A stretch of 62,045 nucleotides of DNA, taken from positions 1-62,045 of IMG/VR virus record IMGVR_UViG_3300021432_000009; one strand, 5' to 3'. The stretch is from a virus (lineage: Duplodnaviria; Caudoviricetes). Below the pieces are notes generated by a model that ran no database searches, was not told where the DNA came from, and saw only the letters and a list, made by a program, of their open reading frames with translations. Position numbers and translations under genes: made by a program. The number at the start of each line of letters is the position of its first letter. Position 1 is the stretch's first letter. Shown here one piece after another: positions 1 to 50,260 of this stretch.

Positions 1-126
1 TCTCCGCTGCGCACAGCAGCATTCTCGAAGCTGTCTTCACCAACGCCGAGGCGTTCGAAGCCAACCTCGACTACTACCTGGCTTCGCCCAGCGAAGTGGC
101 GCTGGACTGCATCGAGCGCATTATGA
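1..126. repeat. Terminal direct repeat (assembly circularity), copy 1
   Basis: Identical to 61911-62036. Confidence 0.97.
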
Positions 127-566
127 AGGAGCGCCCATTGGCGCTCCTTGACGCGCCTCGGAAGATGTACTACGACAAGCGGAAGAAGGTCATAACACGC
201 GAAGAGTTCGAGCCGACAGCGGCGCAGCGCGAGAAGCTCGACAGTGCGATTGCCTTCTGCACGCAAATTGGCTTCCCAATCGCGAGCTACGCCCTTCACT
301 TCGCCGAACTTGGCCAGCGCATCGTGGCACTCGCCGAGGCCGGCGCGATTTGGCTATCCCCTCGCGCGCTCGCCGGCGACGAGGACGAGCTCGCCACCAC
401 GCTCATCGAAGAGTTCATCCATCTGCGCAACCGAGTAGACGACGCGACTCGCCGGATGCAAAATGTCCTCTTCGACGAGATCGTACGCCTTGGGCGACAA
501 GTTGTCGCCCAACACGATGCTCCAGCCGAGTGGTCAGGTACTCGCTTCGATCCGCCCAACCTTTAA
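1..566 (+). CDS. C-terminal part of GHKL-like ATPase / metallopeptidase-like protein spanning the circular junction (starts at 61241)
   Basis: In frame with the ORF starting at 61241 across the junction; contains TLIEEFIH (HExxH-like). Confidence 0.8.
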   Translation, partial: SAAHSSILEAVFTNAEAFEANLDYYLASPSEVALDCIERIMKERPLALLDAPRKMYYDKRKKVITREEFEPTAAQREKLDSAIAFCTQIGFPIASYALHFAELGQRIVALAEAGAIWLSPRALAGDEDELATTLIEEFIHLRNRVDDATRRMQNVLFDEIVRLGRQVVAQHDAPAEWSGTRFDPPNL

Positions 567-598
567 CGACAAGATTCCATTCTGAGGGAGTATCTTCG

Positions 599-793
599 AT
601 GGTCAAAACAGCGTGTTGGGCTGCTGCAGTAGCGATCAGTATAACTGCTATTGCGTGGTCATCCGCTCAGTTCAGTATAGAGGACGTGAAGCAACGCGCT
701 TTCATGATGAAAGTTTGTACTGACGCCGGTGGAAGCTGGGTAAGTAACTGGCGCAATGAATGGAGTTGCGAGCAGCCAAACCGTAAGGACTGA
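599..793 (+). CDS. Small membrane-anchored hypothetical protein
   Basis: GAGGGAG RBS, ATG 599, hydrophobic N-terminus, CxxxGGxW...C motif. Confidence 0.65.
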   Translation: MVKTACWAAAVAISITAIAWSSAQFSIEDVKQRAFMMKVCTDAGGSWVSNWRNEWSCEQPNRKD

Positions 794-796
794 TCC

Positions 797-1144
797 ATGC
801 ACTACCACAGTCCTTTGCGCCCCCGCTGGGCCGGCCAGGGCGCCTACGGCAAAGTAGTACGCGAAGATGGCGTCGCCTTGGGTGCTCTACCGTCGCTCTA
901 CCTCGACCCGCTCGAAGACGGCACCTGGGAGGTCATGGTTCAGCTGCAAGTTAGCATCGCGGCCTTCCGGCAGTTCACCACGCGAGTTAGCACGGCGGAA
1001 CTGCACGACTTGCTCTTTGCTTGGCGCAGCGACCCGGAAGAGGTGCTGCGCAACACGTTCGGGTATGACTTCGCAGTGTGGAGCACGCCGCAGGCGGCAC
1101 CTCGCGAGAAGAGCACAACGACACTGGAGGACCTAGGGCTATGA
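797..1144 (+). CDS. Hypothetical protein ending TTLEDLGL
   Basis: AAGGA RBS; tightly packed ORF. Confidence 0.7.
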   Translation: MHYHSPLRPRWAGQGAYGKVVREDGVALGALPSLYLDPLEDGTWEVMVQLQVSIAAFRQFTTRVSTAELHDLLFAWRSDPEEVLRNTFGYDFAVWSTPQAAPREKSTTTLEDLGL

Positions 1145-1344
1145 TTCGCGCCATCGTAGTCTACTTGCCAGAAGATTGCCGTCACGGCCTGTGCGACTGC
1201 GCAAGCGCAGCAGCATGCCACTTCCCGCGTTGCACTAACTGCGACGAGCTAGTCGACGCGAATGGTAAGTGGATAGATGATAACGGATGGCATGGTGAGC
1301 ACTGTTGCCAGTGCCCAGATTGCGGTGCACCGTTGCCGCCGTAG
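1141..1344 (+). CDS. Small Cys-rich (zinc-finger-like) protein
   Basis: ATGA overlap with upstream stop; multiple CxxC motifs. Confidence 0.6.
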   Translation: MIRAIVVYLPEDCRHGLCDCASAAACHFPRCTNCDELVDANGKWIDDNGWHGEHCCQCPDCGAPLPP

Positions 1345-1373
1345 GCCCACATATGTAATTACATACGTGTGGC
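1344..1373. repeat. Dispersed dyad repeat copy A (GGCCCAC-N3-TGTAATTACA-N3-GTGTGGC)
   Basis: Similar copies at 18389, 42655 and 52407. Confidence 0.8.
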
Positions 1374-1378
1374 GCCCC

Positions 1379-1407
1379 TTTACAACCCACGCAACCCGTG
1401 ATACTAT
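1379..1407 (+). promoter_or_regulatory. Sigma70-type promoter
   Basis: TTTACA-17 bp-TACTAT with TG extension, upstream of ATG 1434. Confidence 0.6.
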
Positions 1408-1433
1408 CACGCCAATCGAAAGGACGCACCGCC

Positions 1434-1928
1434 ATGCACCAACCCACTCCCACCCGCACCATCGAGCTTACCATCCACGGCATCACATTCGCTGCTCCGC
1501 AGCCCTTCGCGCAGGGCCACGTCTGCACCGAGGGCGAAGCGAGCGTTCTGAACGCGCAGTTCGCAGAGAACCTTCGCAACAACTTCGCGAAGCGTGTCAA
1601 GGCGTGGCAAGAAAGCAACCCTGGCGAAGATGCGGAGCATGATGGCGGATTGCACGCAGACTTTAAGCGCTACGCTGCATCCTACACCCTTGCGCCGCGC
1701 ACCTCTGCCGACCCAATCGACCGCGCTGCGCATCGTATCGCCACTGACCTCGTTCGCGAGTCCCTCAACGCGAAGGGCATGAAGCAGAGCGACTTGGCCG
1801 ACGGTCAGTTCGACGAGTTCGTCCGCAAGGTCGCGGCGCGCCCAGCAGTGCGCGATGAAGCCACTCGCCGCGTCGCCGCGACGAAGCACATCGTTTCGCA
1901 GACGCTCGATCTAGACGAGCTTGCATAG
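1434..1928 (+). CDS. Hypothetical protein
   Basis: AAGGA RBS, ATG 1434. Confidence 0.75.
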   Translation: MHQPTPTRTIELTIHGITFAAPQPFAQGHVCTEGEASVLNAQFAENLRNNFAKRVKAWQESNPGEDAEHDGGLHADFKRYAASYTLAPRTSADPIDRAAHRIATDLVRESLNAKGMKQSDLADGQFDEFVRKVAARPAVRDEATRRVAATKHIVSQTLDLDELA

Positions 1929-2170
1929 TGCACCCACTCGCGTTCCAGACAAAGTCTGGCGGCAACTCCGGCGCGTGGAACGAAGTCCACTCTGGCGACC
2001 ATGTAATATGCCTGATATCTGGCCGCACAGGGGTGCTAGATGAGTGCTTGCACGACGGCGAGGCGTTAGTGACTTGGGATGACGGACAATTCGGCGTAGT
2101 GAAGTGGCATAACTTGGCGCCATCTTCAAAAGTTAAGGTTACCGGTAATAACTGGGAAGCAATCCGATAA
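1928..2170 (+). CDS. Small SH3-like hypothetical protein
   Basis: GDHV...GRTG...VTWDDG pattern; abuts neighbours. Confidence 0.55.
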   Translation: MHPLAFQTKSGGNSGAWNEVHSGDHVICLISGRTGVLDECLHDGEALVTWDDGQFGVVKWHNLAPSSKVKVTGNNWEAIR

Positions 2171-2460
2171 TGCCAGCTTCGCCGAACCCTGATTGCACCG
2201 AGCTCTTGTACCGCGCCCTTAGCGCGCCAATAGGCATTGCCGTGCAAGTAAGTGACGCAGCGCGCTGCAAAGCAGAGTTGTACAAGACTCGCACGCTGCT
2301 GTGCGACACCGCGCTCGCCGAGCTAAGCATTCGCACTAATCCACTTCTACCTAGCTCTGAACTCTGGCTAATGCGAGCTGGCGCAATTCCAAGCGACGTG
2401 AAGGGCGCGAAGCCACTCGGGAAGGCATCGCCTCAGCTAGAGCGCGAGGAAACGCGATGA
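2170..2460 (+). CDS. Hypothetical protein
   Basis: Coupled ORF (TAATG overlap). Confidence 0.65.
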   Translation: MPASPNPDCTELLYRALSAPIGIAVQVSDAARCKAELYKTRTLLCDTALAELSIRTNPLLPSSELWLMRAGAIPSDVKGAKPLGKASPQLEREETR

Positions 2461-2660
2461 AGCGAAGCGCAGACAACCTCGCCCGCAAGCACATTTGGGT
2501 CGACACTGACGACTGGCAGTGGTACGAGGAAACATTCGCGGGGAGGATGAAGATTAGCGAAGCCATTCGCCTCGTTATGCGCAAATATCGCCAGAGCGTG
2601 GAGGCGAAGGTTGGCGCGAGCGCGGCGCGGCCGCGAGCAGACCTAGCAGTAGGGGAGTAG
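2457..2660 (+). CDS. Putative ribbon-helix-helix DNA-binding protein
   Basis: KHIWV...ISEAIRLVM pattern; ATGA overlap. Confidence 0.5.
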   Translation: MKRSADNLARKHIWVDTDDWQWYEETFAGRMKISEAIRLVMRKYRQSVEAKVGASAARPRADLAVGE

Positions 2661-2665
2661 CAAGT

Positions 2666-2857
2666 ATGTGGGGTATGTCAGTTATGCACTGGGTCGTCGT
2701 CGCTGGTGTCGTCGCAGTGCTATTCGGCCGAAACAGGGTCAGCAGTGTTATGAAGGACCTGGGTGGCGGCATTCGCGAGTTCAAGAAGGGCATGTCCGAG
2801 GCGCTCGATGCCCCACGCATCGAGGACAAGCGAGAGGAGCGCGAAAGCGATGTTTGA
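2666..2857 (+). CDS. tatA: Twin-arginine translocase TatA/TatE family subunit
   Basis: MWGMSVMHWVVVAGVVAVLFG-RNRVSSVMKDLGGGIREFKKGM: short TM helix, FG hinge, amphipathic helix with FKKG; GGGGAG RBS. Confidence 0.9.
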   Translation: MWGMSVMHWVVVAGVVAVLFGRNRVSSVMKDLGGGIREFKKGMSEALDAPRIEDKREERESDV

Positions 2858-3458
2858 CACAACTCGCCGCAAGTTCCTAGTCGGCTCCCTCGCGTCGCTC
2901 TTCGCCGCACCGGCCATCGTGCGCGCTTCGTCGCTCAACCTCGCCGGCCTGCGCGGCGTGCGGTTTGACACGAGCGGCATAACCTACGACCAGAGCGACT
3001 CGCTCGCCTACGAGTACTGGGCCATCGGCCCCATGGGCCTCGCGAAGTACACGGCAAAACAGATAATGGACGCGCCGAAGGGCGTCTACCTGCCCTGGCT
3101 GCCTTCGGAACGCATGATCCACAGTTATGAGGATAAGCTGGTAGGGGGGCCTAATAGCTTCTTTCGCCCAGTGCGCGAGAACAAGTCCGGCCTAATGTTC
3201 GCACAGGATCAGAAGACAGCTGAACTCAAACTGCTAAATATCGCCGACTCCCTCGACCGCGACCCTGTAGTCGCAAAGCTTCGAAGCGAGCAAGACGACT
3301 TGCTTCGCAAGCTTCGCGATATGCCGCGCAACGAGGCGGAGAAGACGTTCGATCCCAACAACCACGAGGATCGAATGCGCGTCGTACGAGCGTCGCGAAG
3401 AATGCGAGAGCTAGCGTGGCGCAAGGAAGATGCGCAGAATGGCGAGCCTAGCGCATGA
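2850..3458 (+). CDS. Protein with twin-arginine signal peptide
   Basis: GAGGAG RBS, ATG 2850 overlapping the tatA stop; MFDTTRRKFLVGSLASLFAAPAIVRA-SSL. Confidence 0.8.
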   Translation: MFDTTRRKFLVGSLASLFAAPAIVRASSLNLAGLRGVRFDTSGITYDQSDSLAYEYWAIGPMGLAKYTAKQIMDAPKGVYLPWLPSERMIHSYEDKLVGGPNSFFRPVRENKSGLMFAQDQKTAELKLLNIADSLDRDPVVAKLRSEQDDLLRKLRDMPRNEAEKTFDPNNHEDRMRVVRASRRMRELAWRKEDAQNGEPSA

Positions 3459-3687
3459 GCGATCGGGAAGAGCGCCGCAGGCGAGCGCAGATTGCGCGCA
3501 ACTCGTTGCGAACGGAGAACGGCCTTGCCACTAATCGAATGCGAGACGTTGCTGCGCAAGTATCGCCATCTGCGAGTAGTGAACGGACTTCCTCGCACGC
3601 TCTGCCGACGGGTGTACTTGGAAGCGACCGCGCAGACTCGAAGTCGTCCACTATGCCCTGAGTGTAAGATCGCAGCGAGAGTCTACG

Positions 3688-3897
3688 TTGGTAACAATCA
3701 GAACGACTACGCTCCAACTCGCGAAGGGCAAGCTTCGGAAGGGGCGGAGCCTACTTGAGTTCACAACGTACATTAGCATTGGCGAAGCTGATGCGCTTCG
3801 CGAAAGGGCAAGCCTAGATGACCGAACCGTCTCCGCCCAAATCCGCCGCGATATCCGACAAGCCAACAGCGCCTTCGACACAAGACGCAACAAGTAG
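3688..3897 (+). CDS. Possible ribbon-helix-helix protein
   Basis: FTTYIS...ALRERA..DDRTVSAQIRR; start uncertain. Confidence 0.4.
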   Translation: MVTIRTTTLQLAKGKLRKGRSLLEFTTYISIGEADALRERASLDDRTVSAQIRRDIRQANSAFDTRRNK

Positions 3898-4141
3898 TGG
3901 CGCAGCGGCCTTGGCCACCGCAGACGCGCAGTCGCTCGAAGTGCTCTTCTCCCGCGACCCATTCGAGATGATCGTGGAGGACGAGAAGGGCGCACGGAAC
4001 TTCGAAACTATCGTCGCCGCGCTGCGCCGCCAGCGAGCGGCCTGGAAGGCAGCAGAAGCCGCCGGCGCGACATCGGCGCGACGCAAGGCGGCGAAGGCCA
4101 AGGTCACTACGAGCCTAGCAGAGTTGGGCCTCGATGATTAG
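3818..4141 (+). CDS. Hypothetical protein ending TTSLAELGLDD
   Basis: ORF with a C-terminal motif shared with other genes in this genome. Confidence 0.6.
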   Translation: MTEPSPPKSAAISDKPTAPSTQDATSSGAAALATADAQSLEVLFSRDPFEMIVEDEKGARNFETIVAALRRQRAAWKAAEAAGATSARRKAAKAKVTTSLAELGLDD

Positions 4142-4252
4142 AAGATTTCTCTGCTGAATTGGATGGCATAGTTGGCACGCAGGTATTCCTGTGTACCATT
4201 CATGGAAGTACAACTGCAAGTACTGTGGCAAGTCAAAACTGGTACTCGACTG

Positions 4253-5200
4253 ATGCAGACCTTCGAGACTAACAGCAGCTTCTCACGAGAAGTCCCAAAC
4301 CTGCAACTTGCATGGGACTCAACCTCGTTGGGCTTACTAAAGGAGTGCCCGCGCAAATATCAGCTCGCCATTATTGAGGGCTACGAGCAGCGCGTTCGCA
4401 ACGTACATCTCGCCTTCGGCATCTGGCTTCACGAAGCAAAGGAGCAGTACGACTCCGCGCGCGCTGACGATCTCAGCTACGAGGAAGCCGTCTTGCGTTC
4501 TGTCCGCCACATAATGTGCGCGACATGGAACAGCGAGCTTAAGCGGCCCTGGGCTTCCGACGACTCACACAAGAACCGCTTCACGCTCGTCCGCACAGTC
4601 GTCTGGTATCTCACAGAATACAAAGACGATCCAATTGAGACACTGCGGCTTGCAAATGGCAAGGCTGCGGTGGAGCTAAGCTTCTCCTTCGAGTCACCAT
4701 TCATCGCCAATAGCGGTGAGAAGTTCCTAATCTGCGGTCACATGGACCGCTTCGGTAAGATCGGCACTCCCGCCTGGGTCTGCGATGTGAAGAGCACAAA
4801 GTATTCGCTCGACGAGCGCTACTTTGCGCAGTTTACCCCGCACAACCAGTTCACAATCTACACACTCGCCGCGCGAGTGGTGTATAGTATACCTGTGCAG
4901 GGGCTAATCGTCGACGCAGCGCAAGTCGCCGTGACTTTCTCGCGCTTTGAGCGTCGACAGGTCTATCGCGACGAGGCGCAGCTCGACGAGTGGCTACAGG
5001 GCTTCGGCGTGTACGTGAAACAGGCCGAGTACTACGCTCGAATGAACTATTGGCCGCTTAACGAAACTAGCTGCAATAAGTTTAGTGGCTGTCAGTTTCG
5101 TCAAGTCTGCTCGCACTCACCGGCTATTCGCCAAAAATGGCTTGATGCAGACTTCGTGAAACGCACCTGGGACCCACTGCGCACGCGAGGGGATATCTAG
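4253..5200 (+). CDS. PD-(D/E)XK exonuclease, Cas4/RecB-like
   Basis: CPR...FG...H, GHMD...DVKS, C-terminal Cys cluster (Fe-S-like). Confidence 0.85.
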   Translation: MQTFETNSSFSREVPNLQLAWDSTSLGLLKECPRKYQLAIIEGYEQRVRNVHLAFGIWLHEAKEQYDSARADDLSYEEAVLRSVRHIMCATWNSELKRPWASDDSHKNRFTLVRTVVWYLTEYKDDPIETLRLANGKAAVELSFSFESPFIANSGEKFLICGHMDRFGKIGTPAWVCDVKSTKYSLDERYFAQFTPHNQFTIYTLAARVVYSIPVQGLIVDAAQVAVTFSRFERRQVYRDEAQLDEWLQGFGVYVKQAEYYARMNYWPLNETSCNKFSGCQFRQVCSHSPAIRQKWLDADFVKRTWDPLRTRGDI

Positions 5201-5202
5201 CT

Positions 5203-5340
5203 ATGCCTATGATTGCGTTTTCTATCGGTTTAATTGGCTTTGGCCTCTCGGTTGTGTCGGGAGATCGGTGGGTAATTGCGCTAACTGGTGCTATGTTAGT
5301 TGTGAACGGCGCCATAACATGGGTGAATATGAGTATATGA
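5203..5340 (+). CDS. 45-aa two-TM membrane protein
   Basis: Translated by hand: MPMIAFSIGLIGFGLSVVSGDRWVIALTGAMLVVNGAITWVNMSI; fills the gap between neighbours. Confidence 0.5.
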   Translation: MPMIAFSIGLIGFGLSVVSGDRWVIALTGAMLVVNGAITWVNMSI

Positions 5341-5534
5341 CTCGCCCGTTTCGTCCGACCACTACCCACGCTTCGCCGAAGCTACCTAGTACTGCCTTCG
5401 GCTTCGCCGACGCGCGCATTGGGCCAAACAAGGCGATGAGCGAAAAGGCTGCGCAGACTAGGCGCCAGCGCGGCTTGAAGGTCACACTGCCGCGCATTCG
5501 TTGCTTAGAAAAGCCAATAGAGAGCGAGGACTGA
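5337..5534 (+). CDS. Hypothetical protein
   Basis: ATGA coupling. Confidence 0.5.
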   Translation: MTRPFRPTTTHASPKLPSTAFGFADARIGPNKAMSEKAAQTRRQRGLKVTLPRIRCLEKPIESED

Positions 5535-6452
5535 GTGGCGAATATTACTGCGCACCAGAGCGCGACAACCACGAAGCTCCTGCTGATCGGCCACTCCGGC
5601 AGCGGTAAAACCGGCGCTCTCGCCTCGCTCGCCGCAGCAGGCTACAAGCTGCGCATCTTGGACTTCGATAACGGCCTCGATATCCTTCGGAACTACGTTA
5701 CGGACCCGAGTTCGCCATACGTGAAGGCAAACCCAAAGGTTGCAGAGAATATCGACTATGTGACTTGCACAGACAAGATGCGCAACGTCGCCGGCAACAT
5801 AATGTGCGCGAAGGCCGAGGCGTGGCAGCGCGCAACGCAGATGTTAGTGCATTGGACTTACGAAGAGAAGCAAGCCGACGGCAGCGTGAAGAAAGTTGAC
5901 CTGGGGAAGATCACCGAGTGGGGTGCAGACACCATCCTAGCGGTAGATAGCCTCAGCATGGCCGCCACGGCGGCACTTAACTTCCACTTGCAGATGAATG
6001 GGAAGCTTGGGCAAGCGAGGACGCAGAACGAAGCCCGGCGCGACATCGGCGCGACGCAAGGTCACCTCCGCAAAATGCTCGAGCTTCTCTACGACGACTC
6101 CATAAAGTGCAACACGATAGTGAACTCCCACATCACAATGGTGACAGAGAGTGGCCTGGGACCGCAGAGCGAGGAATTTAAGGAGCAAGGAAACGGTGAG
6201 GCACCTAAAGGCTTCCCCAGCGCCATTGGGCGTGCGCTCAGCCCCATTATCCCTCGTTTCTTCAACTCTGTGTTGTTCATTGACACCGCTGGGAGTGGAG
6301 CTTCGGCGAAGCATCGCATTTACACCCGTTCGCAGGGCGCGATACTCGTCAAAACGACCGCCCCGTTACGAGTAAGGCCGGACTACGACATCGCACAGGG
6401 GCTAGCAGAGTACTTCGCCGCTGTGCGCGAGTCGCCAAAGGTTCCGTCCTAA
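5535..6452 (+). CDS. AAA_24 / Sak4-like P-loop ATPase (recombinase)
   Basis: Walker A GHSGSGKT, LAVDS Walker B, NSH; lies between exonuclease and SSB-like gene. Confidence 0.8.
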   Translation: MANITAHQSATTTKLLLIGHSGSGKTGALASLAAAGYKLRILDFDNGLDILRNYVTDPSSPYVKANPKVAENIDYVTCTDKMRNVAGNIMCAKAEAWQRATQMLVHWTYEEKQADGSVKKVDLGKITEWGADTILAVDSLSMAATAALNFHLQMNGKLGQARTQNEARRDIGATQGHLRKMLELLYDDSIKCNTIVNSHITMVTESGLGPQSEEFKEQGNGEAPKGFPSAIGRALSPIIPRFFNSVLFIDTAGSGASAKHRIYTRSQGAILVKTTAPLRVRPDYDIAQGLAEYFAAVRESPKVPS

Positions 6453-6479
6453 GACGGAGCATACGCAACTACCAACCAA

Positions 6480-6959
6480 ATGGAGTCCCAACCAATGACA
6501 GTTGACTTCAAACAACTTCTCGCAAAACCCGTAGATGACGTAAAGCGCCCTCCCGCGCCACCTGCGGGGACCTACTACGGCACCATCGCGGCCTTCAAGT
6601 TCCAAGAGAGCGCTTGGACGAACAATGAAACTGGCGATAAGGACGCCCAGGTGCGCTACACGATCCGTAATATCGAGCCGGGCGAGGACATCCTCGCGAA
6701 TGCGGAGTTGCTCGAAGGCATAGACCTCTCGAAACGTCAGTTCAACGCCGACTTGCCCCTGTCCGGCGGCAACGAGTGGGTTACGAAGACGTTCCTCGAA
6801 GCCCTCGGCATCGCGACGAGTGGCCGCGGTTGGGGGGAGTTGTGCCCCGAAGCCATTAACCACTCCGTTATGTTCGACGTCACCCACCGGCTGAACAAAA
6901 CCGACCCAGCTGCGCCGCCGTTCACCGACGTGAGGAATCTTCGCAAGCGACCCGAGTAG
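6480..6959 (+). CDS. Putative single-stranded DNA-binding protein (DUF669-like)
   Basis: PAGTY motif; position after Sak4-like gene. Confidence 0.6.
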   Translation: MESQPMTVDFKQLLAKPVDDVKRPPAPPAGTYYGTIAAFKFQESAWTNNETGDKDAQVRYTIRNIEPGEDILANAELLEGIDLSKRQFNADLPLSGGNEWVTKTFLEALGIATSGRGWGELCPEAINHSVMFDVTHRLNKTDPAAPPFTDVRNLRKRPE

Positions 6960-7153
6960 TCGGGGCGTTCGCCCCGACGCGAGTGTGGTGCGGTTCAATT
7001 CCGCCTCGCTGGCCGAGATCTGGTGATTAATTAGGGTTCGAAGCCCTGCCTTGCAGAGGTCGCTGTACGCTGCTCGGATCATTGCCCGCATGGTGGCGGG
7101 GGCCAAGACGGCGGGAGGATTGTGGGGAAAACGCAACGCCTCCCGCCGTTCTT
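6959..7153 (+). ncRNA. Candidate structured RNA with two T-loop-like hairpins
   Basis: Five hairpins in an intergenic stretch, including GCGG-TTCAATT-CCGC and AGGG-TTCGAAG-CCCT. Confidence 0.35.
7108..7153 (+). terminator. Possible intrinsic terminator/attenuator
   Basis: 11-bp stem ACGGCGGGAGG/CCTCCCGCCGT followed by TCTT. Confidence 0.35.
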
Positions 7154-7181
7154 CGGCACTCGAAGCTTGAGGACTACGTGA

Positions 7182-8603: not shown

Positions 8604-8947
8604 GAATTAACGTTTATACTGAGGAACTTCTGGCCAACTTTGGTCCGAATACGCCTAGTTGCGCAGAGATCGTGAAGACCGAGTACGTCTCCAGCCGAAC
8701 TGGCGAGAAGATGGCAAACTATGGCCTGCGCATCTACTTCAAATCTCACCCAGACCTCCACTACGTTCCTCCACGGGACGACGACCGCTCCGCTGTCACC
8801 ATTTGGTGCGGCTCGAGGGAGAAGAACGTCGTTAAGTTTTGGGACGATATAGCTACTGCACTACAACTTTCAACTCTTAAAAATTGGCGCGAGAAGACAG
8901 AAGCGCAGCAGGCCAGTACGGAGGCCGCAATTGCCAAAGGCGATTAA
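8600..8947 (+). CDS. Hypothetical protein
   Basis: ATGA coupling; MRINVYTEE...DDDRSAVT. Confidence 0.7.
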   Translation: MRINVYTEELLANFGPNTPSCAEIVKTEYVSSRTGEKMANYGLRIYFKSHPDLHYVPPRDDDRSAVTIWCGSREKNVVKFWDDIATALQLSTLKNWREKTEAQQASTEAAIAKGD

Positions 8948-9239
8948 CTTCATCTGCTTCTCCCTCCGTCTCGACCCAGACACCTATCTGGAGGTTCTTT
9001 CCTATGCAAAGCGACAGCGGCTTAACAAAACCGATGCCCTCCGCGAGCTCATCGACTTCGGAATTATTAGCGCAGCGGGGGACGACGCACGGCGACTTCA
9101 CGGTCAACGCGCGCATCTCGCAGCGCCTCAAGGCCGTCATTCAGGAGGAACCAAACTGGCCCAAACTAGCTGCATATCAGCAAGAAGCAATCCACATGAT
9201 CCTTCACAAGATCAGCCGAGCCGTTGCCGGCAACGCTGA
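8931..9239 (+). CDS. Ribbon-helix-helix protein overlapping the next gene
   Basis: GGAGG RBS before TTG; FSLRLDPD...AKRQRLNKTDALRELI. Confidence 0.45.
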   Translation: MPKAINFICFSLRLDPDTYLEVLSYAKRQRLNKTDALRELIDFGIISAAGDDARRLHGQRAHLAAPQGRHSGGTKLAQTSCISARSNPHDPSQDQPSRCRQR

Positions 9240-9306
9240 CTTTAAGGATCATTGGGACGACATAGCAGGCTACGCGAAGCTGGTATCCGACCGATGCACG
9301 TCGTAG
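9004..9306 (+). CDS. DUF6378-like protein
   Basis: RGTTHGDF...MILHKISR..G...DHWDDIAGYA; start uncertain. Confidence 0.75.
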   Translation: MQSDSGLTKPMPSASSSTSELLAQRGTTHGDFTVNARISQRLKAVIQEEPNWPKLAAYQQEAIHMILHKISRAVAGNADFKDHWDDIAGYAKLVSDRCTS

Positions 9307-10391: not shown

Positions 10392-10400
10392 GGATACGCA

Positions 10401-10607
10401 ATGGTCGATGCATACGAACGTGAACAGCAAGCGCTACACAATCAGCAAAAGCGCGAGAGATTAGAACTCGCTGAAGCTAAGGCCAAGATAGCACGTCTGC
10501 GCGCGGCGCTCAAGCCATTCGCAGAGGTCTTTCGCGGTGAGCGGCTGAATGCAGGCCCAGTTGATTGGCAACAAGCAAGTGAAGTTTACACGAATACAGT
10601 ACAATGA
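10401..10607 (+). CDS. Hypothetical coiled-coil protein
   Basis: LRAALKPFA motif; lies between the polymerase halves. Confidence 0.6.
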   Translation: MVDAYEREQQALHNQQKRERLELAEAKAKIARLRAALKPFAEVFRGERLNAGPVDWQQASEVYTNTVQ

Positions 10608-13254: not shown

Positions 13255-13264
13255 CTGAAATGTT

Positions 13265-14449: not shown

Positions 14450-14461
14450 CGGAGGAACGAA

Positions 14462-15427: not shown

Positions 15428-15437
15428 CTCAGTCTCC

Positions 15438-25109: not shown

Positions 25110-26750
25110 TTAGGTTGGTGCTGCTGCACCCTTTTCCATATCCCAATTGCGAGCAAGTGTAGGGTTTACTACTGTAGTATCAAAGGGATACTCAAATTTG
25201 AAACCAGAACGAACGCCAGACATATTGACGTAATTGTCGGTAGCTACCGGATTATTGTTATGCGCCGTACCGCCTTGGGCATTGGTCCAATTGATCCACG
25301 TCTCCATCGCGGTCGGCCCAGATGAATGGTTCAGCGACCCCAATCCGATTCCGCAATTATAACTCCAATTGCACCCGCTGAATGATGAATTATTGCCAAA
25401 TCCGCTTGCATTATGCGCCGCTACGACACCACCAGGGAGCCCCGTGCCGACATCAGCAGCGGCCTGAAAGAAGAAATTGAATTTTGCGGAAGCGTCAGTT
25501 ACCGCAAACGCGCCGGCATAGTAAATATGATCACCGTGCGGCGTCGGTGATCCGCCATACATATTTGAGTCCAATAGGCAGAATCGAACATTGTGCCCAT
25601 TGCACTCCAACGGGTGCTGATCGCAATTCTTGAGCCACATATATTGTAGTGTCATCACGCCGGCGGTCGCGTCGTCGACGCATGTTGGGGGGCTCATGTT
25701 ACTACCAGAGCCTTGTCCACCGTCTACGGTGCCATATTTTAAAGTGCAACCAGTTCCACTGCCGCTCGCCTTGATTGGTGGGGAAGCAGGAGAAACTCCC
25801 GAATAACTCGAATAGCTCAAGAGAAAGTTGGTTAGAGTAAAGTTCGATCCAGTAACTAAAATATGATAACCCGGAGCGGTCGTAAAATCATAGCCGTCCA
25901 AGCTGACATTATTGCCACTCACTGTAACAGTCGAGCCGACCACCGAGACCCCAGATACGGAGATCGTCGCAGGGTCTTTGAGCGTCACGCCAGGATTCGG
26001 CCCAACCGCATAATCTATCCCCGCCACTTTCCATGGAGGGCGAATATAGGAGCTTACCGTACCGCCCGATGTGTAGGCAGCATTAAACGGGACGTTGATC
26101 AAGTCAATATGAGTCGCGTCGATGACTGTTATCTGACACCCGATATTTGCGTTTGTCGTTCCGCCGACACCAGAAACATAGACGACTTGATTACTGACCA
26201 TCGCCGCGGTGCTTGTGACCGACAACCGTACGATACCAGAGCCATTATTTGCTGCACCCGTAACTGACGTAATGGTTTGATTCTGACTATTTGGGGGCCC
26301 TACGATTGCGCCATTGAGCATCGCAGAATATTGCGCGGTACCGCTTGGTGCATTGACAAAGCCGTCTCCCCAAGCATTAACGGTAACTTGATGAGACCCG
26401 CTGCCGTTCGCATTGGTCGCTTGCACGATAAGCGTCTGCGCTACCAAATCACCAACAAGATTTGTCACTCCAGTCGCGGTCGTGGTAATAATACCGGAAT
26501 TGCTGATCTGATAGTTGCCGGATGGATCACCGCCAGTAATCGACCATGATGTGGGTGAGTTGGTCGCGGAGACAGTGACAACAGCGCCGCCATTTGTCAC
26601 TGGAGTTGATATGTTAACCGTGGCCCCGGTTACGACCGGCGCCCCAACACCCGTTGCCGCGAATTGGACAAAACCTATGGCGAGAGATGATGTAGAAGAA
26701 AGCAACAGAACCCCAAAAAGCCATAAAAACCCGCGTCTACTCCCCGCCAT
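25110..26750 (-). CDS. Tail-associated beta-rich protein (cadherin-like plus beta-helix) with twin-arginine signal
   Basis: MAGSRRGFLWL...; Ig-like ATNSPTSW repeat; RPPWKVAGIDY; HGDH. Confidence 0.6.
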   Translation of the reverse strand: MAGSRRGFLWLFGVLLLSSTSSLAIGFVQFAATGVGAPVVTGATVNISTPVTNGGAVVTVSATNSPTSWSITGGDPSGNYQISNSGIITTTATGVTNLVGDLVAQTLIVQATNANGSGSHQVTVNAWGDGFVNAPSGTAQYSAMLNGAIVGPPNSQNQTITSVTGAANNGSGIVRLSVTSTAAMVSNQVVYVSGVGGTTNANIGCQITVIDATHIDLINVPFNAAYTSGGTVSSYIRPPWKVAGIDYAVGPNPGVTLKDPATISVSGVSVVGSTVTVSGNNVSLDGYDFTTAPGYHILVTGSNFTLTNFLLSYSSYSGVSPASPPIKASGSGTGCTLKYGTVDGGQGSGSNMSPPTCVDDATAGVMTLQYMWLKNCDQHPLECNGHNVRFCLLDSNMYGGSPTPHGDHIYYAGAFAVTDASAKFNFFFQAAADVGTGLPGGVVAAHNASGFGNNSSFSGCNWSYNCGIGLGSLNHSSGPTAMETWINWTNAQGGTAHNNNPVATDNYVNMSGVRSGFKFEYPFDTTVVNPTLARNWDMEKGAAAPT

Positions 26751-34448: not shown

Positions 34449-35681
34449 CTAGAGGAAGTCAGGCACAACGCAGGCCCATTCGGGCCGAACGTATAGGATT
34501 CCCCAAAGCACGTCAAGTCGAGTGATGAATTGGTCGCTGCGAATGTCGTATGCGCTAATCATTCGCATCGAGATGCCATCATACGACTCCCTCGCCGCTT
34601 CGTGCACGCCACGCGGCAGCTCCAGGTCCGCCGTTGCCATCGTGATGGCCTCGGGCACGAACGCGAAGTTCTTCCGATACACGGAACTCGCCAGCGTTGC
34701 AGGGATGACATTCGCCGCATTCGCCGGCGAGTTGTCCACCGTCTGGTACTGCACCGGAGTCGGCCCAGCAGCCGCAGGGATCAGCGCAGGGTAGATGTTC
34801 ATCGTCGTGCCGCCATTCGCAACGGCAGTCGTCAAGACGAACTGCATCGGAGTCTGCGTGGAGACCTTCGTGATACGGTTCACGGAGTTGACGCCGCTGA
34901 TCGTCACGATATCGCCGAGAGCGTAGGTGCCCGCCAGCGCATTAATGGTGATCTGCAACCCCGTTTGGCCAGCGCCATTCACAGTGGCAGACGTGGCCTG
35001 CGCGCTCGTATACGCACCCGTCGTATGCTTGATAACCGTTTGGTCCGAGTACCAGTCGAACCCGAGCGTATCCTCGGCGATCTGACCCTTCTTGTACTGG
35101 TCGCCGATCTTGTTCTGCGGGTTCAGTAGGCCGGCGAGGCTCGCGACGCTTCGCGCCATCGTAATGGGGTCAAGGATCAGTTTCCGGCGACCCCTTGGCG
35201 CAGAGTTAAGGTCGAGCAGCGCGCCGGCGGTGAGCCAAGTCTGCGCAATGGGCGTGAGCACGTTGCCTGCGCCATCGAAGTTGCCGGCAAGTCGGGCTAC
35301 GCCGCCCTCGACGCCGGCCATGATATTCGCGGCTACGTCGCCGCACAGGTTATTGACCATCGGGGCGAGGATACGGCGGGAGAAGTCGTCGAGCAACATG
35401 GTACGGTCGACACTGCTGTACGACACGTCCACGCCATATTGGTTGGTGAGCGTCAGCGTGGTGCTCTGCTCGCTCGTGTCCTGAATGCTCGCCGCCGGTC
35501 CGTGCCGAGTCGTGAAGTCGTTCGGCAAGCGCACCCTTACCGTCGTGCCGATCTTCGCGCCCGTCTTCGCGAACTGATCGTCGTATTGCTGGTCGATGTG
35601 CTGAATGAACTCGTTGGAGTTCTTCCAAAGCCGCACGGCCTCGCGGGTAATCATGTTGATTGTCAGGATGGTATTCGGCAT
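34449..35681 (-). CDS. Major capsid protein (P22 coat family)
   Basis: N..LTI.MITREA, YDD.F...GAKIG...R.RLP, TRLDVL.G...RPEW. Confidence 0.95.
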   Translation of the reverse strand: MPNTILTINMITREAVRLWKNSNEFIQHIDQQYDDQFAKTGAKIGTTVRVRLPNDFTTRHGPAASIQDTSEQSTTLTLTNQYGVDVSYSSVDRTMLLDDFSRRILAPMVNNLCGDVAANIMAGVEGGVARLAGNFDGAGNVLTPIAQTWLTAGALLDLNSAPRGRRKLILDPITMARSVASLAGLLNPQNKIGDQYKKGQIAEDTLGFDWYSDQTVIKHTTGAYTSAQATSATVNGAGQTGLQITINALAGTYALGDIVTISGVNSVNRITKVSTQTPMQFVLTTAVANGGTTMNIYPALIPAAAGPTPVQYQTVDNSPANAANVIPATLASSVYRKNFAFVPEAITMATADLELPRGVHEAARESYDGISMRMISAYDIRSDQFITRLDVLWGILYVRPEWACVVPDFL

Positions 35682-47184: not shown

Positions 47185-47830
47185 CCTTGGCCTCCCACTT
47201 GTCACACACGTCATCTGGCGAAATCGCCCCAGCCACCCAGGTACACGCCCGCAGCCGCGGCAGGAACATTGCGCAGTGCTCGCACGCGCGAGTCTTCCCA
47301 CTCGCCTCTCGGTAGTCCACTTCGTCCTTCTCGAACTTGCTCTTCGCGGCGACCTTCTCCAAGTGTGCGAGCAACTTCGCATCGCCCTCGTAGGGATATA
47401 GGTCGAGATCTGGCGGCACTCGACGGATATCCTCATGCTCAATTGGCATGAAGTCTGGCTCTAGGCCCTTCTCGTACTTCTCCCAGTCGTAGCCGTCGCC
47501 AAGCACTGCGAATTGCTCCGCAGCAGTAGCTAGATGATGGGCAGGCTCATAGCTCTGCTCTGCTTCATGCACTAGCGCCGCCTCGACGCTCTCGTGCACT
47601 TCGATATACTTCGCCAGCGGGACGCCTTCGCTCTTCTCCGGCAGATGGCGGTCGAGGTACACATACGCGCCGTCGCGGGAGATTCCACCCAAGTATGGCA
47701 CGTCGAATGTGTTGCAAAGCTTGCGCCACTTGCGCAGCCGCCGGCCGACGGCCGGATAGCGAATTAGTAGGGCACGTAAGCGCGCGAGCGAGCCCGGTGC
47801 GTCGTCGAATTTACTATCACCTGCGCTCAC
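47177..47830 (-). CDS. HE-motif protein with C-terminal HiPIP-like 4-Cys domain
   Basis: PYLGG.S.DG..Y.DR, HE.VE, AH..A; Y....C..C..F....C..V.G.ISP...C..W. Confidence 0.65.
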   Translation of the reverse strand: MSAGDSKFDDAPGSLARLRALLIRYPAVGRRLRKWRKLCNTFDVPYLGGISRDGAYVYLDRHLPEKSEGVPLAKYIEVHESVEAALVHEAEQSYEPAHHLATAAEQFAVLGDGYDWEKYEKGLEPDFMPIEHEDIRRVPPDLDLYPYEGDAKLLAHLEKVAAKSKFEKDEVDYREASGKTRACEHCAMFLPRLRACTWVAGAISPDDVCDKWEAKGE

Positions 47831-48189
47831 GCGATTATCCTGCCAGGCTCAAGTCCTGCGTATTCTGGCCACGATACTACTGCGTCTATACAAGCCTGCA
47901 CACCAGGGACTGGTCGAATACTGTCAATAGTTTCTCTCGAAATAAACTTGTGAACCTGTTTAGCTGTAAGTGTAATAATACCAGATCGAGAGTCGTATTG
48001 ATGCAATGGAAACTGAGCACGGTCTACTCGAATTAACATTTGGTCAGTATTGATTTGGTATACAGCCAGATACCGCGTGTAGTATGGGTCAAAGTTGCGA
48101 ACTGGCATTAAACTACTCGTACGCACAATGGCTGGCGCAGCCAGGCTGCTAGCAAGACCAACTAGAAGACTTCTGCGAGCAATAAGCAT
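47827..48189 (-). CDS. Twin-arginine signal protein with weak similarity to coat C-terminal strands
   Basis: MLIARRSLLVGLASSLAAPAIVRTSSLMPV; RYLAVYQINTDQMLIRVD. Confidence 0.7.
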   Translation of the reverse strand: MLIARRSLLVGLASSLAAPAIVRTSSLMPVRNFDPYYTRYLAVYQINTDQMLIRVDRAQFPLHQYDSRSGIITLTAKQVHKFISRETIDSIRPVPGVQACIDAVVSWPEYAGLEPGRIIA

Positions 48190-48880: not shown

Positions 48881-49518
48881 TTTGGCGGCTCCAGTTGTGG
48901 GGTGGCAGTTACGTCGATCAGCGGGGCTTCGTCAGCTTGCGGCGACACGAAGCTCACGTTTACCGTAACGCCGCCGCCAGAGGTGCCCTGCTGCCCTCGT
49001 GCCGCGCCCTTGCTAGGTGCCACCGACCTGTCGAAGGCCATGGCGGCGACCTCAAGCAGTTCGCGATTCTTGAAGTCCTCGGGGGAGTCTTCTAGCCGCT
49101 CCTGTAGCACCTCGACTGCCGTGGCGCCGACTACTGCGAGGCGTCCTGTGGCGTCGAGGAACTGCGCTTGCGCCTCAGCAGCATAGTGCGCGACTAGTTC
49201 GCGGAACGCTGGGTCTTGCGTTTGCAAGCGATATATCGTCGTAATCGCGTGGCCAGTTATGCTTGCGATCTCGGCTGGCTTCTTCCCACTTGCGACGAGG
49301 CGGGCGAGCAGGTGGTGGGAGTAACGGAGACGCTGGACGGACGACTTCGCCGCGCCCACGGGGACGTTGCGCAGAATGTCGATGTCCTCCGCCGTGAGGT
49401 CGCGGACGTAGGAGAAGACGAGCGGCTCGGCGCGCTCCCGGCGGCCCTCGGAGAGGGCTAGAAGGGCGATATCGTCGAGCAATTCGACTGAGGCGGTCAT
49501 GCTGCTGCACTCGGCCAC
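48877..49518 (-). CDS. HTH protein, candidate terminase small subunit
   Basis: H..LARL.A.G....EIA..TG.....I..L..DPAF; C-terminal VNVSF. Confidence 0.55.
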   Translation of the reverse strand: MAECSSMTASVELLDDIALLALSEGRRERAEPLVFSYVRDLTAEDIDILRNVPVGAAKSSVQRLRYSHHLLARLVASGKKPAEIASITGHAITTIYRLQTQDPAFRELVAHYAAEAQAQFLDATGRLAVVGATAVEVLQERLEDSPEDFKNRELLEVAAMAFDRSVAPSKGAARGQQGTSGGGVTVNVSFVSPQADEAPLIDVTATPQLEPPK

Positions 49519-49877
49519 TGTTGGCCTTCGTAGTAGGCCAAGTCGAATGCTGCGTCTTGTCGTGCCATGATAGACTTCGCAACAGACTCAGCAAACTTGT
49601 CCTGCATAGGCTTAATGATACGAGCAGAGTACTCATCGAGTACTAACTCAGGTGGCAGTTCTAATGCTGTCCACTCAGGACGAACTTGCATCGAGCCAAA
49701 CAGGACGTGTAAGCGAGTAATTGACTCGTCGGCTCCAACGTCGTACACAGCAATCTTGCGAAGTGAGATGCCATCGGAGATGGCCTTGACTGGCATAAGC
49801 GACGAGGCGCGAACGATAGCCGGGGCAGCGATGAAGAGCGCTCCTAGACCAGTTATAAAGCTGCGCCGGCTAGTCAT
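49497..49877 (-). CDS. Twin-arginine signal fused to permuted major-capsid fragments
   Basis: MTSRRSFITGLGALFIAAPAIVRA; matches coat residues 368-402 (21/35 identical) then 95-122 (12/28), aligned by hand. Confidence 0.85.
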   Translation of the reverse strand: MTSRRSFITGLGALFIAAPAIVRASSLMPVKAISDGISLRKIAVYDVGADESITRLHVLFGSMQVRPEWTALELPPELVLDEYSARIIKPMQDKFAESVAKSIMARQDAAFDLAYYEGQQWPSAAA

Positions 49878-50260
49878 GCGAAGCTCGCTGTCTGCCGAAT
49901 TGTGAAGTCGCCAGGAAGTCGGATTCGAATAGTACTGCCAATTTTTACACCGGCTTTATTAAACTCGTCGTCGTATTGCGAAATAAACTTGTGTGAGTTC
50001 ACAAATAGCTTAACTGCCTCGCGAGTGATCTCGTTAACTGACAGCAGGCTACCGGTAATTTGGTACGTTGCTGCTTCTTCAAACCATTCAGCCTCCGCGC
50101 CAAGCAGAGGATACATGAAAACTGGTTCTTCTTGGACTGTACTGAGCGCCTTAACTGGCATTAAGCTACTCGCACGCACGATAGCCGGGGCGGCGAACGC
50201 GAATGCGCCGAGGCCAGCGAGAAAGCCGCGGCGAGAGGGGATGAGTAGTTGGTCTGCCAT
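49874..50260 (-). CDS. Twin-arginine signal fused to major-capsid N-terminal fragment
   Basis: SRRGFLAGLGAFAFAAPAIVRA; matches coat residues 4-59 (32/52 identical), aligned by hand. Confidence 0.88.
   Translation of the reverse strand: MADQLLIPSRRGFLAGLGAFAFAAPAIVRASSLMPVKALSTVQEEPVFMYPLLGAEAEWFEEAATYQITGSLLSVNEITREAVKLFVNSHKFISQYDDEFNKAGVKIGSTIRIRLPGDFTIRQTASFA

What the first reader, a model, noticed from the sequence alone, without database searches (positions are those of the whole stretch)
2666..2857. Phage-encoded TatA translocase subunit
Seen: 63-aa protein with H-W at the start of the TM helix, an LFG hinge and an amphipathic helix ending IREFKKGM. Known: these are TatA/E hallmarks, and TatA needs host TatBC, which are absent here. 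Inference: it may boost or redirect host Tat export for the phage's five RR-signal proteins, or poison host Tat and thereby block export of host cofactor proteins and receptors.
Basis: partly seen in the sequence, partly recalled or inferred. Interest (0 to 1): 0.8.

Follow-up and report, generated by a model that had tools for sequence, protein, structure and literature searches.

The report
Phage TatA gene coupled to cargo
A soil phage carries its own copy of TatA, the small membrane subunit of the bacterial machine that exports folded proteins, joined to a gene for a protein with that machine's address tag, so the phage probably tops up the host's exporter for its own proteins.

Summary
ORF 2666-2857 (+) encodes a 63-aa protein that passes the curated cut-offs of Pfam TatA_B_E and NCBIfam tatAE. 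It aligns without gaps to E. coli TatA and keeps the polar residue 8, the F-G hinge, G33 and the F-K motif. The window is a complete 62-kb phage with a P22-type coat and has no TatC or second TatA/B. The tatA stop overlaps by 8 nt the start of a 202-aa protein of unknown fold that carries a twin-arginine-type leader. The same tatA-cargo pair, again overlapping, occurs in 3 of 3 related contigs where the neighbourhood is visible, one of them a collinear complete phage whose TatA is only 44% identical. dN/dS is 0.13. The phage has five RR-leader ORFs (0.13 expected by chance); four share one conserved leader, and three of those carry pieces of the phage's own coat protein.

My best reading is a stand-alone, TatE-like TatA that supplements host TatBC for phage cargo (about 0.58). 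Export itself is not shown. The curated Tat-signal HMMs stay below their cut-offs, and 0 of 50 other phages with this leader have a TatA. Poisoning of host Tat is disfavoured.

Earlier notes of this scan describe phage TatA-plus-cargo pairs in at least four other genomes. Five literature searches found no paper on it.

The parts
2666..2857 (+). tatA: 63-aa stand-alone TatA/TatE-family protein
   Evidence: PF02416 36.7 bits (cut-off 21). TIGR01411 65.2 bits (cut-off 53.9). Gapless alignment to E. coli TatA 2lzs/2mn7. dN/dS 0.13 against the L002 copy.
2651..2657 (+). Shine-Dalgarno-like AGGGGAG, 8 nt before the tatA ATG
   Evidence: Read directly from the sequence. It lies at the end of the upstream ORF, whose stop is at 2658-2660.
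2850..3458 (+). Coupled cargo gene: 202-aa protein with a twin-arginine-type leader (RRKF, then AAPAIVRA-SS) and a mature part of unknown fold. Its ATG overlaps the tatA stop (ATGTTTGA).
   Evidence: The same overlap occurs in L002 and an overlap in L162/G262. The family has 15 homologues of 159-226 aa, all with the leader. AF2 model pLDDT 74.4. No match at E<=0.001 in PDB or BFVD.
2457..2660 (+). Conserved 67-aa upstream gene of the same operon, function unknown
   Evidence: Syntenic homologues in L002 and L162. No Pfam or PHROG match.
2170..2460 (+). Conserved 96-aa upstream gene of the same operon, function unknown
   Evidence: Syntenic homologues in L002 and G262 (52% identity). No Pfam or PHROG match.
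49874..50260 (-). RR-leader protein (128 aa) carrying a copy of coat-protein residues 4-60
   Evidence: BLASTP against the coat protein: 56% identity, E 1e-20.
49497..49877 (-). RR-leader protein (126 aa) carrying copies of coat-protein residues 368-405 and 95-122
   Evidence: E 4e-12 and 4e-5. It gives the only, sub-threshold, TIGR01409 match: 14.7 bits (cut-off 16.7).
47827..48189 (-). RR-leader protein (120 aa) with a faint likeness to coat-protein residues 365-390
   Evidence: E 0.003.
25110..26750 (-). Fifth RR-motif ORF (546 aa) in the virion module. Its N-terminus is different and more hydrophobic, so it may be a membrane anchor rather than a Tat signal.
   Evidence: No PHROG or Pfam family.
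34449..35681 (-). Major head (coat) protein of P22 type, the source of the fragments in the leader proteins
   Evidence: phrog_283 E 2e-61. PF11651 109.2 bits.

Best explanation
The ORF is a working, selectively maintained TatA/TatE-type subunit of the twin-arginine (Tat) translocase. It is encoded by a complete P22-coat-type phage whose host is probably an alphaproteobacterium (Hyphomicrobiales-like). The phage brings only TatA, so the protein must act with the host's TatBC receptor.

Proposed mechanism. tatA sits in the + strand operon that holds the recombination and replication genes. It is transcribed there together with the next gene, and the two are translationally coupled through an 8-nt overlap. 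The 63-aa protein inserts into the inner membrane and joins the pool of host TatA. TatBC complexes that have bound a twin-arginine leader then recruit it. TatA is the subunit needed in large excess and does the membrane-weakening step. An extra, phage-controlled supply would therefore keep or raise export capacity while host gene expression fails. The first beneficiary would be the coupled 202-aa leader protein, followed by the three leader proteins that carry coat-protein fragments.

Shown: family membership, retention of the key positions, purifying selection, absence of tatB/tatC, overlap with a leader-bearing gene, and conservation of that pair in diverged relatives.

Inferred: membrane insertion, co-operation with host TatBC, that the leader is a real Tat signal, and that the effect is a gain in export.
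For: Family membership. PF02416 and TIGR01411 score above their cut-offs. Residues 1-45 align without gaps to E. coli TatA, with H8 at the polar position 8 and F20-G21, G33, F39-K40-K41 kept. S5, H8, V12, L19, F20, G21, M29, G35, F39 and K40 are invariant across 4 phage-clade and 8 alphaproteobacterial TatAs. The F-K motif is described as conserved in all TatA paralogues in passages of the review PMC13673990.

Selection. dN/dS is 0.13, with dS about 1.25, against the 81%-identical copy in L002. There are six clade members at 65-86% identity.

Coupling. ATGTTTGA joins the tatA stop to the cargo start in the window and in L002. G262 is a collinear complete 60.9-kb relative (coat 85%, terminase 71%, portal 63%). 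It has a TatA that is only 44% identical (PF02416 22.1 bits, cut-off 21) at the same place, overlapping a 41%-identical cargo homologue. That makes 3 of 3 contigs in which the neighbourhood of this cargo family could be read.

Stand-alone status. There is no TatC and no second TatA/B in the phage.

Cargo. Five RR-leader ORFs against 0.13 expected. The four copies of the conserved leader differ at synonymous sites, so selection acts on the peptide.

Background from passages of PMC13673990. TatA is present in excess over TatB and TatC (21:4:1 in plastids). TatE-type paralogues encoded away from tatBC can replace TatA and may prefer particular substrates. Tat transport can be saturated.

Host clue. 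Of 16 leader-bearing loci in reference genomes, 11 are titled as Alphaproteobacteria. The H8-W9 pair is found in 8 of 8 (H) and 7 of 8 (W) alphaproteobacterial TatAs that I extracted.
Against: Nothing here shows export. The curated Tat-signal HMMs do not reach their cut-offs on the phage's leaders. TIGR01409 gives 14.7 bits (cut-off 16.7) on one of the five. PF10518 gives 12.6 bits (cut-off 22.7) on that same leader, and its only other match (11.8 bits) lies outside the five RR ORFs. The rest give no match at E<=10.

0 of 50 other viral records with the same leader carry a TatA above cut-off, 24 of them at least 90% complete. Phages with this leader therefore normally manage with host TatA alone, and cargo number does not explain the gene: G262 has TatA with 2 leader proteins, while G003 and G036 have 2 leader proteins and no TatA.

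The leader is far more conserved than ordinary signal peptides, and the conservation extends past the presumed V-R-A cleavage site. It may therefore do something besides, or instead of, Tat targeting.

Two other viral TatA loci (L156, L157) have no RR-leader ORF within 4 kb.

The phage TatA is only 34-55% identical to any sampled alphaproteobacterial TatA, so compatibility with the host TatBC is assumed, not shown.
Confidence: 0.58

Rival explanations
1. General host-maintenance gene (an auxiliary metabolic gene). The phage TatA keeps the host's own Tat substrates, such as respiratory enzymes and cell-wall amidases, flowing during infection. This would preserve energy supply and envelope integrity until lysis. 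The neighbouring leader protein would not be its particular client.
For: Two other viral TatA loci have no RR-leader ORF within 4 kb. L156 lies between a peptide-deformylase-like gene and queD/queE-like genes, a typical host-maintenance neighbourhood. L157 lies among structural-like genes. Also, 0 of 50 leader-bearing phages need a TatA of their own.
Against: In this lineage tatA overlaps the leader-bearing gene in 3 of 3 contigs, although the two proteins have diverged to 44% and 41% identity. That pattern is expected for a functional pair and not for a free-standing host-maintenance gene.
Confidence: 0.14
2. Membrane-weakening effector that does not depend on TatBC. TatA is used for its intrinsic ability to thin and permeabilise the membrane. 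It could act as a holin-like or lysis-timing factor, or to lower the proton-motive force.
For: Passages of PMC13673990 describe TatA as the membrane-permeabilising component, whose damage is limited by PspA. Its topology of one short helix plus an amphipathic helix resembles small lysis proteins (my own comparison, not tested).
Against: The gene lies in the replication/recombination operon. No + strand terminator-like site was found between 1400 and 5278. It is far from the candidate lysis genes: a multi-TM 70-aa ORF at 29554-29766 and an Rv2525c-like glycoside hydrolase at 14765-15571. It keeps the polar position 8, the hinge and the F-K motif of translocase-active TatAs. It is coupled to a leader-bearing gene.
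Confidence: 0.1
3. Dominant-negative TatA. It mixes into host TatA assemblies, or occupies TatBC, and blocks host Tat export. The highly conserved leader on short and probably poorly folded passengers might help to jam the receptor.
For: The protein is only 34-55% identical to sampled alphaproteobacterial TatAs. It carries clade-specific invariant residues at the N-terminus (W2, M4, M7). The leader is unusually conserved while the passengers vary.
Against: No position aligned to a functionally important TatA residue is changed. Purifying selection is strong over the whole core (dN/dS 0.13 for residues 1-45). A block would also stop the phage's own five RR-leader proteins.
Confidence: 0.08
4. 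Passenger gene without a role: a host tatA picked up by chance and not yet lost.
For: TatA is rare in phages. Only 2 records of 50,697 GenBank phage records match at E<=1e-3, and both are 219-kb contigs that look bacterial. Pattern scans found only 3 further IMG/VR loci.
Against: The gene is kept at the same place in relatives whose TatA has diverged to 44% identity. dN/dS is 0.13. No sampled cellular TatA is more than 55% identical, so the capture is old.
Confidence: 0.03

Closest known systems
Stand-alone TatA paralogues: E. coli TatE, B. subtilis TatAc
   Same: It is a small TatA-family protein encoded away from tatB/tatC, with the same TM helix, F-G hinge and amphipathic helix with the F-K motif. 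According to passages of PMC13673990, TatE can replace TatA, forms mixed complexes with it and may be tuned to particular substrates.
   Different: It is encoded by a virus, not a cell. It overlaps a leader-bearing cargo gene. It forms its own clade, with an invariant N-terminus MWGMS[VI]MHW and 34-55% identity to sampled alphaproteobacterial TatAs.
Substrate-dedicated Tat operons such as B. subtilis phoD-tatAd-tatCd (recalled; also named in the scan's earlier notes)
   Same: A Tat component is encoded next to, and co-expressed with, one particular twin-arginine substrate.
   Different: There is no TatC partner here. The cargo is a phage protein of unknown fold. The receptor must come from the host.
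Alphaproteobacterial housekeeping TatA
   Same: It shares the S5, H8-W9, LFGR, M-x-D and G-I-K/R-x-F-K-x-G-M signature. The best NCBIfam models are TatA/E.
   Different: It is shorter (63 aa against 60-84 aa). It has W2 instead of G2, and G33-G34-G35 where the cellular proteins have A-x-G. The best identity among the 175 matching genomes of 201 searched is 55%.
Other phage TatA-plus-cargo pairs noted earlier in this scan (e1-3447248, e1-6029681, e1-6010848, e1-3754655; AI notes, not checked by me)
   Same: A phage-borne TatA without TatC lies next to a protein with a twin-arginine signal.
   Different: They are in other phage lineages. DNA words of this locus match no other window. Here the cargo leader belongs to a large conserved family that otherwise occurs without TatA.

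Membership tests
TatA/TatE family (Pfam PF02416, NCBIfam TIGR01411) | Profile score above the curated cut-off | tested here: met
   PF02416 36.7 bits against 21. TIGR01411 65.2 bits against 53.9. The species-level equivalog models all stay below their cut-offs, as expected for a diverged member.
TatA/TatE family (Pfam PF02416, NCBIfam TIGR01411) | N-terminal short hydrophobic helix with a polar residue near its start, then an F-G hinge | tested here: met
   H8 aligns with Q8 of E. coli TatA. The hydrophobic stretch is W9-F20 (12 residues), followed by F20-G21. H8, F20 and G21 are invariant in 12 of 12 aligned sequences.
TatA/TatE family (Pfam PF02416, NCBIfam TIGR01411) | Amphipathic helix with a conserved Gly and the F-K motif | tested here: met
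   G33, F39 and K40 align to the same E. coli residues. F39 and K40 are invariant. The motif is described in passages of PMC13673990.
TatA/TatE family (Pfam PF02416, NCBIfam TIGR01411) | TatA rather than TatB | tested here: met
   All 14 NCBIfam matches at E<=0.1 are TatA/TatE models and none is TatB. The length of 63 aa is TatA-like.
TatA/TatE family (Pfam PF02416, NCBIfam TIGR01411) | Supports TatBC-dependent transport of twin-arginine proteins | not testable with these tools
   This needs complementation of a tatA mutant.
Stand-alone TatA paralogue (TatE/TatAc type) | Not encoded together with tatB/tatC | tested here: met
   No PF00902 match at E<=1 in the complete record. There is a single PF02416 match.
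Substrate-dedicated Tat operon (phoD-tatAdCd type) | Cargo gene adjacent and co-expressed | tested here: met
   The overlap is 8 nt in the window and in L002. The genes also overlap in L162.
Substrate-dedicated Tat operon (phoD-tatAdCd type) | Own TatC encoded in the operon | tested here: not met
   No TatC in the phage.
Twin-arginine signal peptide (TIGR01409 / PF10518), asked of the coupled cargo and its paralogues | Profile score above the curated cut-off | tested here: not met
   TIGR01409 gives 14.7 bits against 16.7, on the 126-aa protein only. PF10518 gives 12.6 bits against 22.7. The other four RR ORFs are not matched at E<=10.
Twin-arginine signal peptide (TIGR01409 / PF10518), asked of the coupled cargo and its paralogues | Short n-region, then [ST]-R-R-x-F-[LI], an uncharged h-region of about 15 residues, a basic residue in the c-region, and small residues at -3/-1 | tested here: met
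   Read from the sequences: RR-x-F/L-[LIV], an h-region ending in AAPAIV, then R-A before SS. The definition of these features is recalled knowledge. No SignalP or TatP run was available.
Holin / lysis protein | Location in a lysis cassette and holin family match | tested here: not met
   The only PHROG match is phrog_29532, 'unknown function'. The gene lies among replication genes.

The most novel reading that the evidence does not exclude
tatA and the 202-aa leader protein form a virus-borne export module. With it, this phage lineage uses the host Tat receptor for a purpose outside normal secretion. One possibility is moving, or holding at the membrane, folded proteins that mimic pieces of its own head. 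In 7 of the 11 phage genomes examined that have such a leader protein, the small leader proteins carry pieces of their own coat, portal or adaptor protein. Because Tat can carry bound partners across ('hitch-hiking'), the leader proteins could drag or tether head proteins, their own or a competitor's. The phage TatA would then be the dosage or specificity factor that makes this possible.
Probability: 0.15. Interest if true: 0.85.

Novelty: new variant of a known kind. Interest (0 to 1): 0.62.

Why it matters
If the reading is right, viruses can carry a piece of the Tat translocase itself, not just proteins with Tat signals, and wire it to a client of their own. This would matter in four ways.

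1. It would be a natural experiment on TatA dosage and on the substrate preference of TatA paralogues. The review PMC13673990 (passages) states that this preference has not yet been analysed.
2. It offers a minimal 63-aa TatA with a distinctive N-terminus for structure-function work.
3. It provides a very strongly conserved leader that could be a high-affinity Tat-targeting tag.
4. It gives an entry point to the unexplained family of leader-tagged head-protein fragments.

It also warns annotators that a tatA in a viral contig is not necessarily host contamination.

Tried and rejected
Close-relative scans. Pattern scans with the single TatA found nothing in IMG/VR or in reference genomes. The single 202-aa protein found nothing in IMG/VR. 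Alignments were needed to reach relatives.

GenBank phages. tblastn at E<=10 gave 8 records, none of them a convincing phage TatA. They were 219-kb, 113-kb and 57-kb 'Acinetobacter phage MD-2021a' contigs, Salmonella genome contigs, and two unannotated fragments.

Annotation around the leader genes. Ten ORFs between 42.8 and 51.2 kb have no PHROG match. Nine of ten late-region ORFs have no Pfam match.

The 202-aa cargo. There is no Pfam, NCBIfam or PADLOC-independent clue. Only weak PHROG hits with E>=0.026 were found. No fold match in PDB (best E 1.6) or BFVD (best E 0.39). The protein atlas gave nothing usable. Its hits to giant proteins are spurious: P0103 is a plectin-repeat protein and P0109 is made of fibronectin repeats.

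Complex prediction of the coat protein with the 128-aa leader protein (residues 31-128) gave 'no answer' (score 0.00). That is neither support nor evidence against binding.

Expression. One soil metatranscriptome library (X1) holds the locus. Its contigs, at 99% identity or more, cover all 30 bins of 1-20000 evenly, and one record is 46 kb long. DNA carry-over therefore cannot be told from transcription, and I make no claim of expression.

Idea of 'more cargo, hence own TatA'. I rejected it as a rule. The window has 4 conserved leaders, but G262 has TatA with only 2, while G003 and G036 have 2 and no TatA.

Literature. Five searches found no paper on a phage-encoded TatA. Three candidate hits were TATA promoter boxes. 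The Tat review mentions phages only for PhiX174/SlyD, PspA and T4 RI. One figure legend lists a TatC Pfam hit in a marine virus genome (PMC10564846). Supplements were closed and may hold gene lists that name viral tatA.

Rows not used.
- searched 50 of the 80 leader loci. I left out mostly contigs under about 14 kb, and L071-L082 regardless of size.
- One search aligned 33 proteins that I picked: the 4 window paralogues plus 29 of the 79 proteins listed.
- One search used the 8 cellular TatAs that my regular expression extracted from 20 loci.
- One search left out 5 long proteins of the 21 hits.
- One search used the window plus 11 records picked for completeness. In one of them (G018) my pattern found no leader.
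- The tally includes one genome flagged as unpublished (G101).

Full report
What is there. The ORF lies at 2666-2857 on the + strand and encodes 63 residues. An AGGGGAG site precedes the ATG by 8 nt, and the upstream ORF stops 6 nt before the ATG. The protein scores 36.7 bits on Pfam PF02416 (cut-off 21). It scores 65.2 bits on NCBIfam TIGR01411, the TatA/TatE subfamily model (cut-off 53.9). All 14 NCBIfam matches are TatA/TatE models. The species-level equivalogs stay below their own cut-offs. PHROGs has a weak match to phrog_29532, annotated 'unknown function' (E 2.4e-5).

Against solved structures, residues 1-45 align without a gap to E. coli TatA (2lzs, 2mn7; E about 7e-7). H8 stands where E. 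coli has Q8. F20-G21, G33 and F39-K40-K41 are identical. The hydrophobic stretch W9-F20 is 12 residues long. That these positions matter for TatA function is recalled knowledge. The F-K motif is also described in passages of the review PMC13673990.

The genome. The window is a whole IMG/VR virus record with 100% CheckV completeness. It encodes a large terminase, portal, scaffold, a P22-type coat protein (PF11651, 109 bits) and a head-closure protein. It also encodes a PD-(D/E)XK nuclease, a Sak4-like protein, a ParB-methyltransferase fusion, DNA polymerase, primase and helicase. Both ends of the record match one ORF of a relative, so the ends meet inside a gene. There is no TatC and no second TatA/B match. 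tatA lies in the + strand block that holds the recombination and replication genes. No + strand terminator-like site was found between 1400 and 5278.

The neighbour. The tatA stop overlaps by 8 nt (ATGTTTGA) the start of a 202-aa ORF at 2850-3458. Its N-terminus has a short n-region, T-R-R-K-F-L, an uncharged stretch ending in AAPAIV, then R-A followed by SS. A motif scan finds five such ORF starts in the window, against one in the reversed sequence and a mean of 0.13 in 100 shuffles. Four of them share almost the same leader. Their DNA differs at synonymous sites, so the peptide is what is conserved. The curated Tat-signal profiles do not confirm the leaders. TIGR01409 gives 14.7 bits (cut-off 16.7) on one leader, PF10518 gives 12.6 bits (cut-off 22.7), and the others are not matched. 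The Tat nature of the leader therefore rests on motif features and on its link to tatA.

Is the pair conserved? Six close TatA relatives exist (65-86% identity), all on short metagenome contigs. One of these contigs could be fetched (L002, 1143 bp). It has the same two upstream genes, tatA, the same ATGTTTGA overlap and the same leader. dN/dS between the two tatA copies is 0.13, with dS about 1.25.

Searching IMG/VR with an alignment of the 202-aa family brought in L162. This locus lies in G262, a complete 60.9-kb phage that is collinear with the window (coat 85%, terminase 71%, portal 63%). At the syntenic place G262 has a TatA only 44% identical to the window's (PF02416 22.1 bits, cut-off 21). 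That TatA overlaps a 41%-identical homologue of the 202-aa protein. The pair is thus present in 3 of 3 contigs where the neighbourhood of this cargo family could be read. It has been kept while both partners diverged far more than the virion genes.

Is TatA a general companion of the leader? No. The leader occurs on at least 79 small metagenome proteins with unrelated mature parts. It also occurs in at least 89 stretches of IMG/VR and in 16 loci of reference genomes, 11 of which are titled as Alphaproteobacteria. Of 50 leader-bearing viral records searched, 24 of them at least 90% complete, none has a TatA above cut-off. An IMG/VR scan with a TatA alignment found three further TatA loci:
- L158 is flanked by host-type metabolic genes and is probably a host flank.
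- L156 lies between peptide-deformylase-like and queD/queE-like genes.
- L157 lies among structural-like genes.
None of the three has an RR-leader ORF in the 4-kb flanks.

Origin. Alphaproteobacterial TatAs share the S5, H8-W9, LFGR and F-K-x-G-M signature with the phage protein. The TatAs of nine leader-bearing alphaproteobacterial MAGs are only 34-51% identical. In a sample of 201 genomes of that class, the best of 175 matches is 55% identical (one genome of that sample is flagged unpublished, and nothing rests on it). The gene is therefore an old, diverged acquisition, most likely from an alphaproteobacterium.

The cargo. The 202-aa family has invariant Y-W, P-W, R and G-L positions and a helical C-terminal part. 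The AF2 model (pLDDT 74.4, pTM 0.54) matches nothing in PDB or BFVD at E<=0.001. Three of the other leader proteins carry copies of coat-protein segments: residues 4-60 (E 1e-20), residues 368-405 plus 95-122 (E 4e-12 and 4e-5), and faintly residues 365-390 (E 0.003).

I scanned the window and 11 other phage records, and my pattern found leader proteins in 11 of these 12 genomes. In 7 of those 11, a leader protein matches a segment of a larger protein of the same genome. The larger proteins are major head proteins of three different PHROG families, a portal and a head-tail adaptor. G262 adds one more case. Earlier notes of this scan on the same window describe this capsid-fragment pattern; I confirmed it independently. 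A complex prediction of the coat protein with one fragment protein gave no answer.

Reading. I consider the family assignment near certain. The most economical function is that of a TatE-like extra TatA that works with host TatBC and serves the coupled cargo first. The passages of PMC13673990 seen support the logic: TatA is needed in large excess, stand-alone paralogues can replace TatA and may prefer particular substrates, and Tat transport saturates. The rivals are general host maintenance, TatBC-independent membrane weakening, a dominant-negative block, and a useless passenger gene. They are weighed in their own sections. Each is less consistent with the conserved overlap with a leader gene, the intact key positions and the low dN/dS. 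Expression could not be assessed.

Novelty. Five full-text searches found no description of a phage-encoded TatA (checks). Source annotations already name some relatives 'TatA'. This scan's earlier notes report phage TatA-plus-cargo pairs in at least four other genomes (not checked by me). I therefore rate it a new variant of a known kind: a canonical TatA in a new carrier, a virus, with a new wiring, TatA only and overlapping its client.

Noticed in passing
window 47827-50260 (-), and loci L109, L116, L119, L122, L139, L143, L173: I scanned the window and 11 other phage records, and my pattern found proteins with the conserved leader (AAPAIVRASSLMPV type) in 11 of these 12 genomes. In 7 of those 11, such a protein carries a segment homologous to a head protein of the same genome. 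The sources are coat proteins of three PHROG families, a portal and a head-tail adaptor. G262 adds an eighth case.
   Followed up: partly
window 9252-10391 (+), 10987-12501 (+), 10461-11072 (-): The DNA polymerase is read as two ORFs that match consecutive parts of phrog_17 (profile positions 479-807 and 805-1239). A 203-aa ORF lies on the opposite strand in the gap. This may be a split gene or an inserted element.
   Followed up: no
window 14765-15571 (-): The last gene of the leftward late block has an Rv2525c-like glycoside-hydrolase domain (PF08924, 97.7 bits). It probably starts at the internal Met 49 and has no signal. It is a candidate endolysin.
   Followed up: partly
window 3-566 (+) and 61241-62044 (+): The open ORFs at the two ends of the record both match one 418-aa ORF of the relative G262. 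The record's ends therefore meet inside a gene, which suggests a circularly permuted complete genome.
   Followed up: partly
window 30464-31330 (-): This ORF has a Sec-type signal and a porin-like sequence inside the late region. Pfam gave no match at E<=0.01.
   Followed up: no
window 15438-16940, 27580-29143 (-): Several virion-region ORFs begin with signal-peptide-like hydrophobic N-termini, one of them ending in V-R-A followed by Q. This is unusual for proteins that assemble in the cytoplasm.
   Followed up: no
L156 180-356 (+): A 9.7-kb viral contig carries a 58-aa TatA-like gene between a peptide-deformylase-like ORF and queD/queE-like ORFs. This is a second, unrelated setting for a viral tatA.
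   Followed up: partly
L157 4001-4138 (+): A 25.6-kb viral contig carries a 45-aa TatA-like ORF that ends right after the amphipathic helix. It lies between structural-like genes and has no RR-leader ORF within 4 kb.
   Followed up: partly
window 7182-8603 (+): A single 473-aa ORF joins a ParB-like N-terminal domain to a DNA methyltransferase domain.
   Followed up: no
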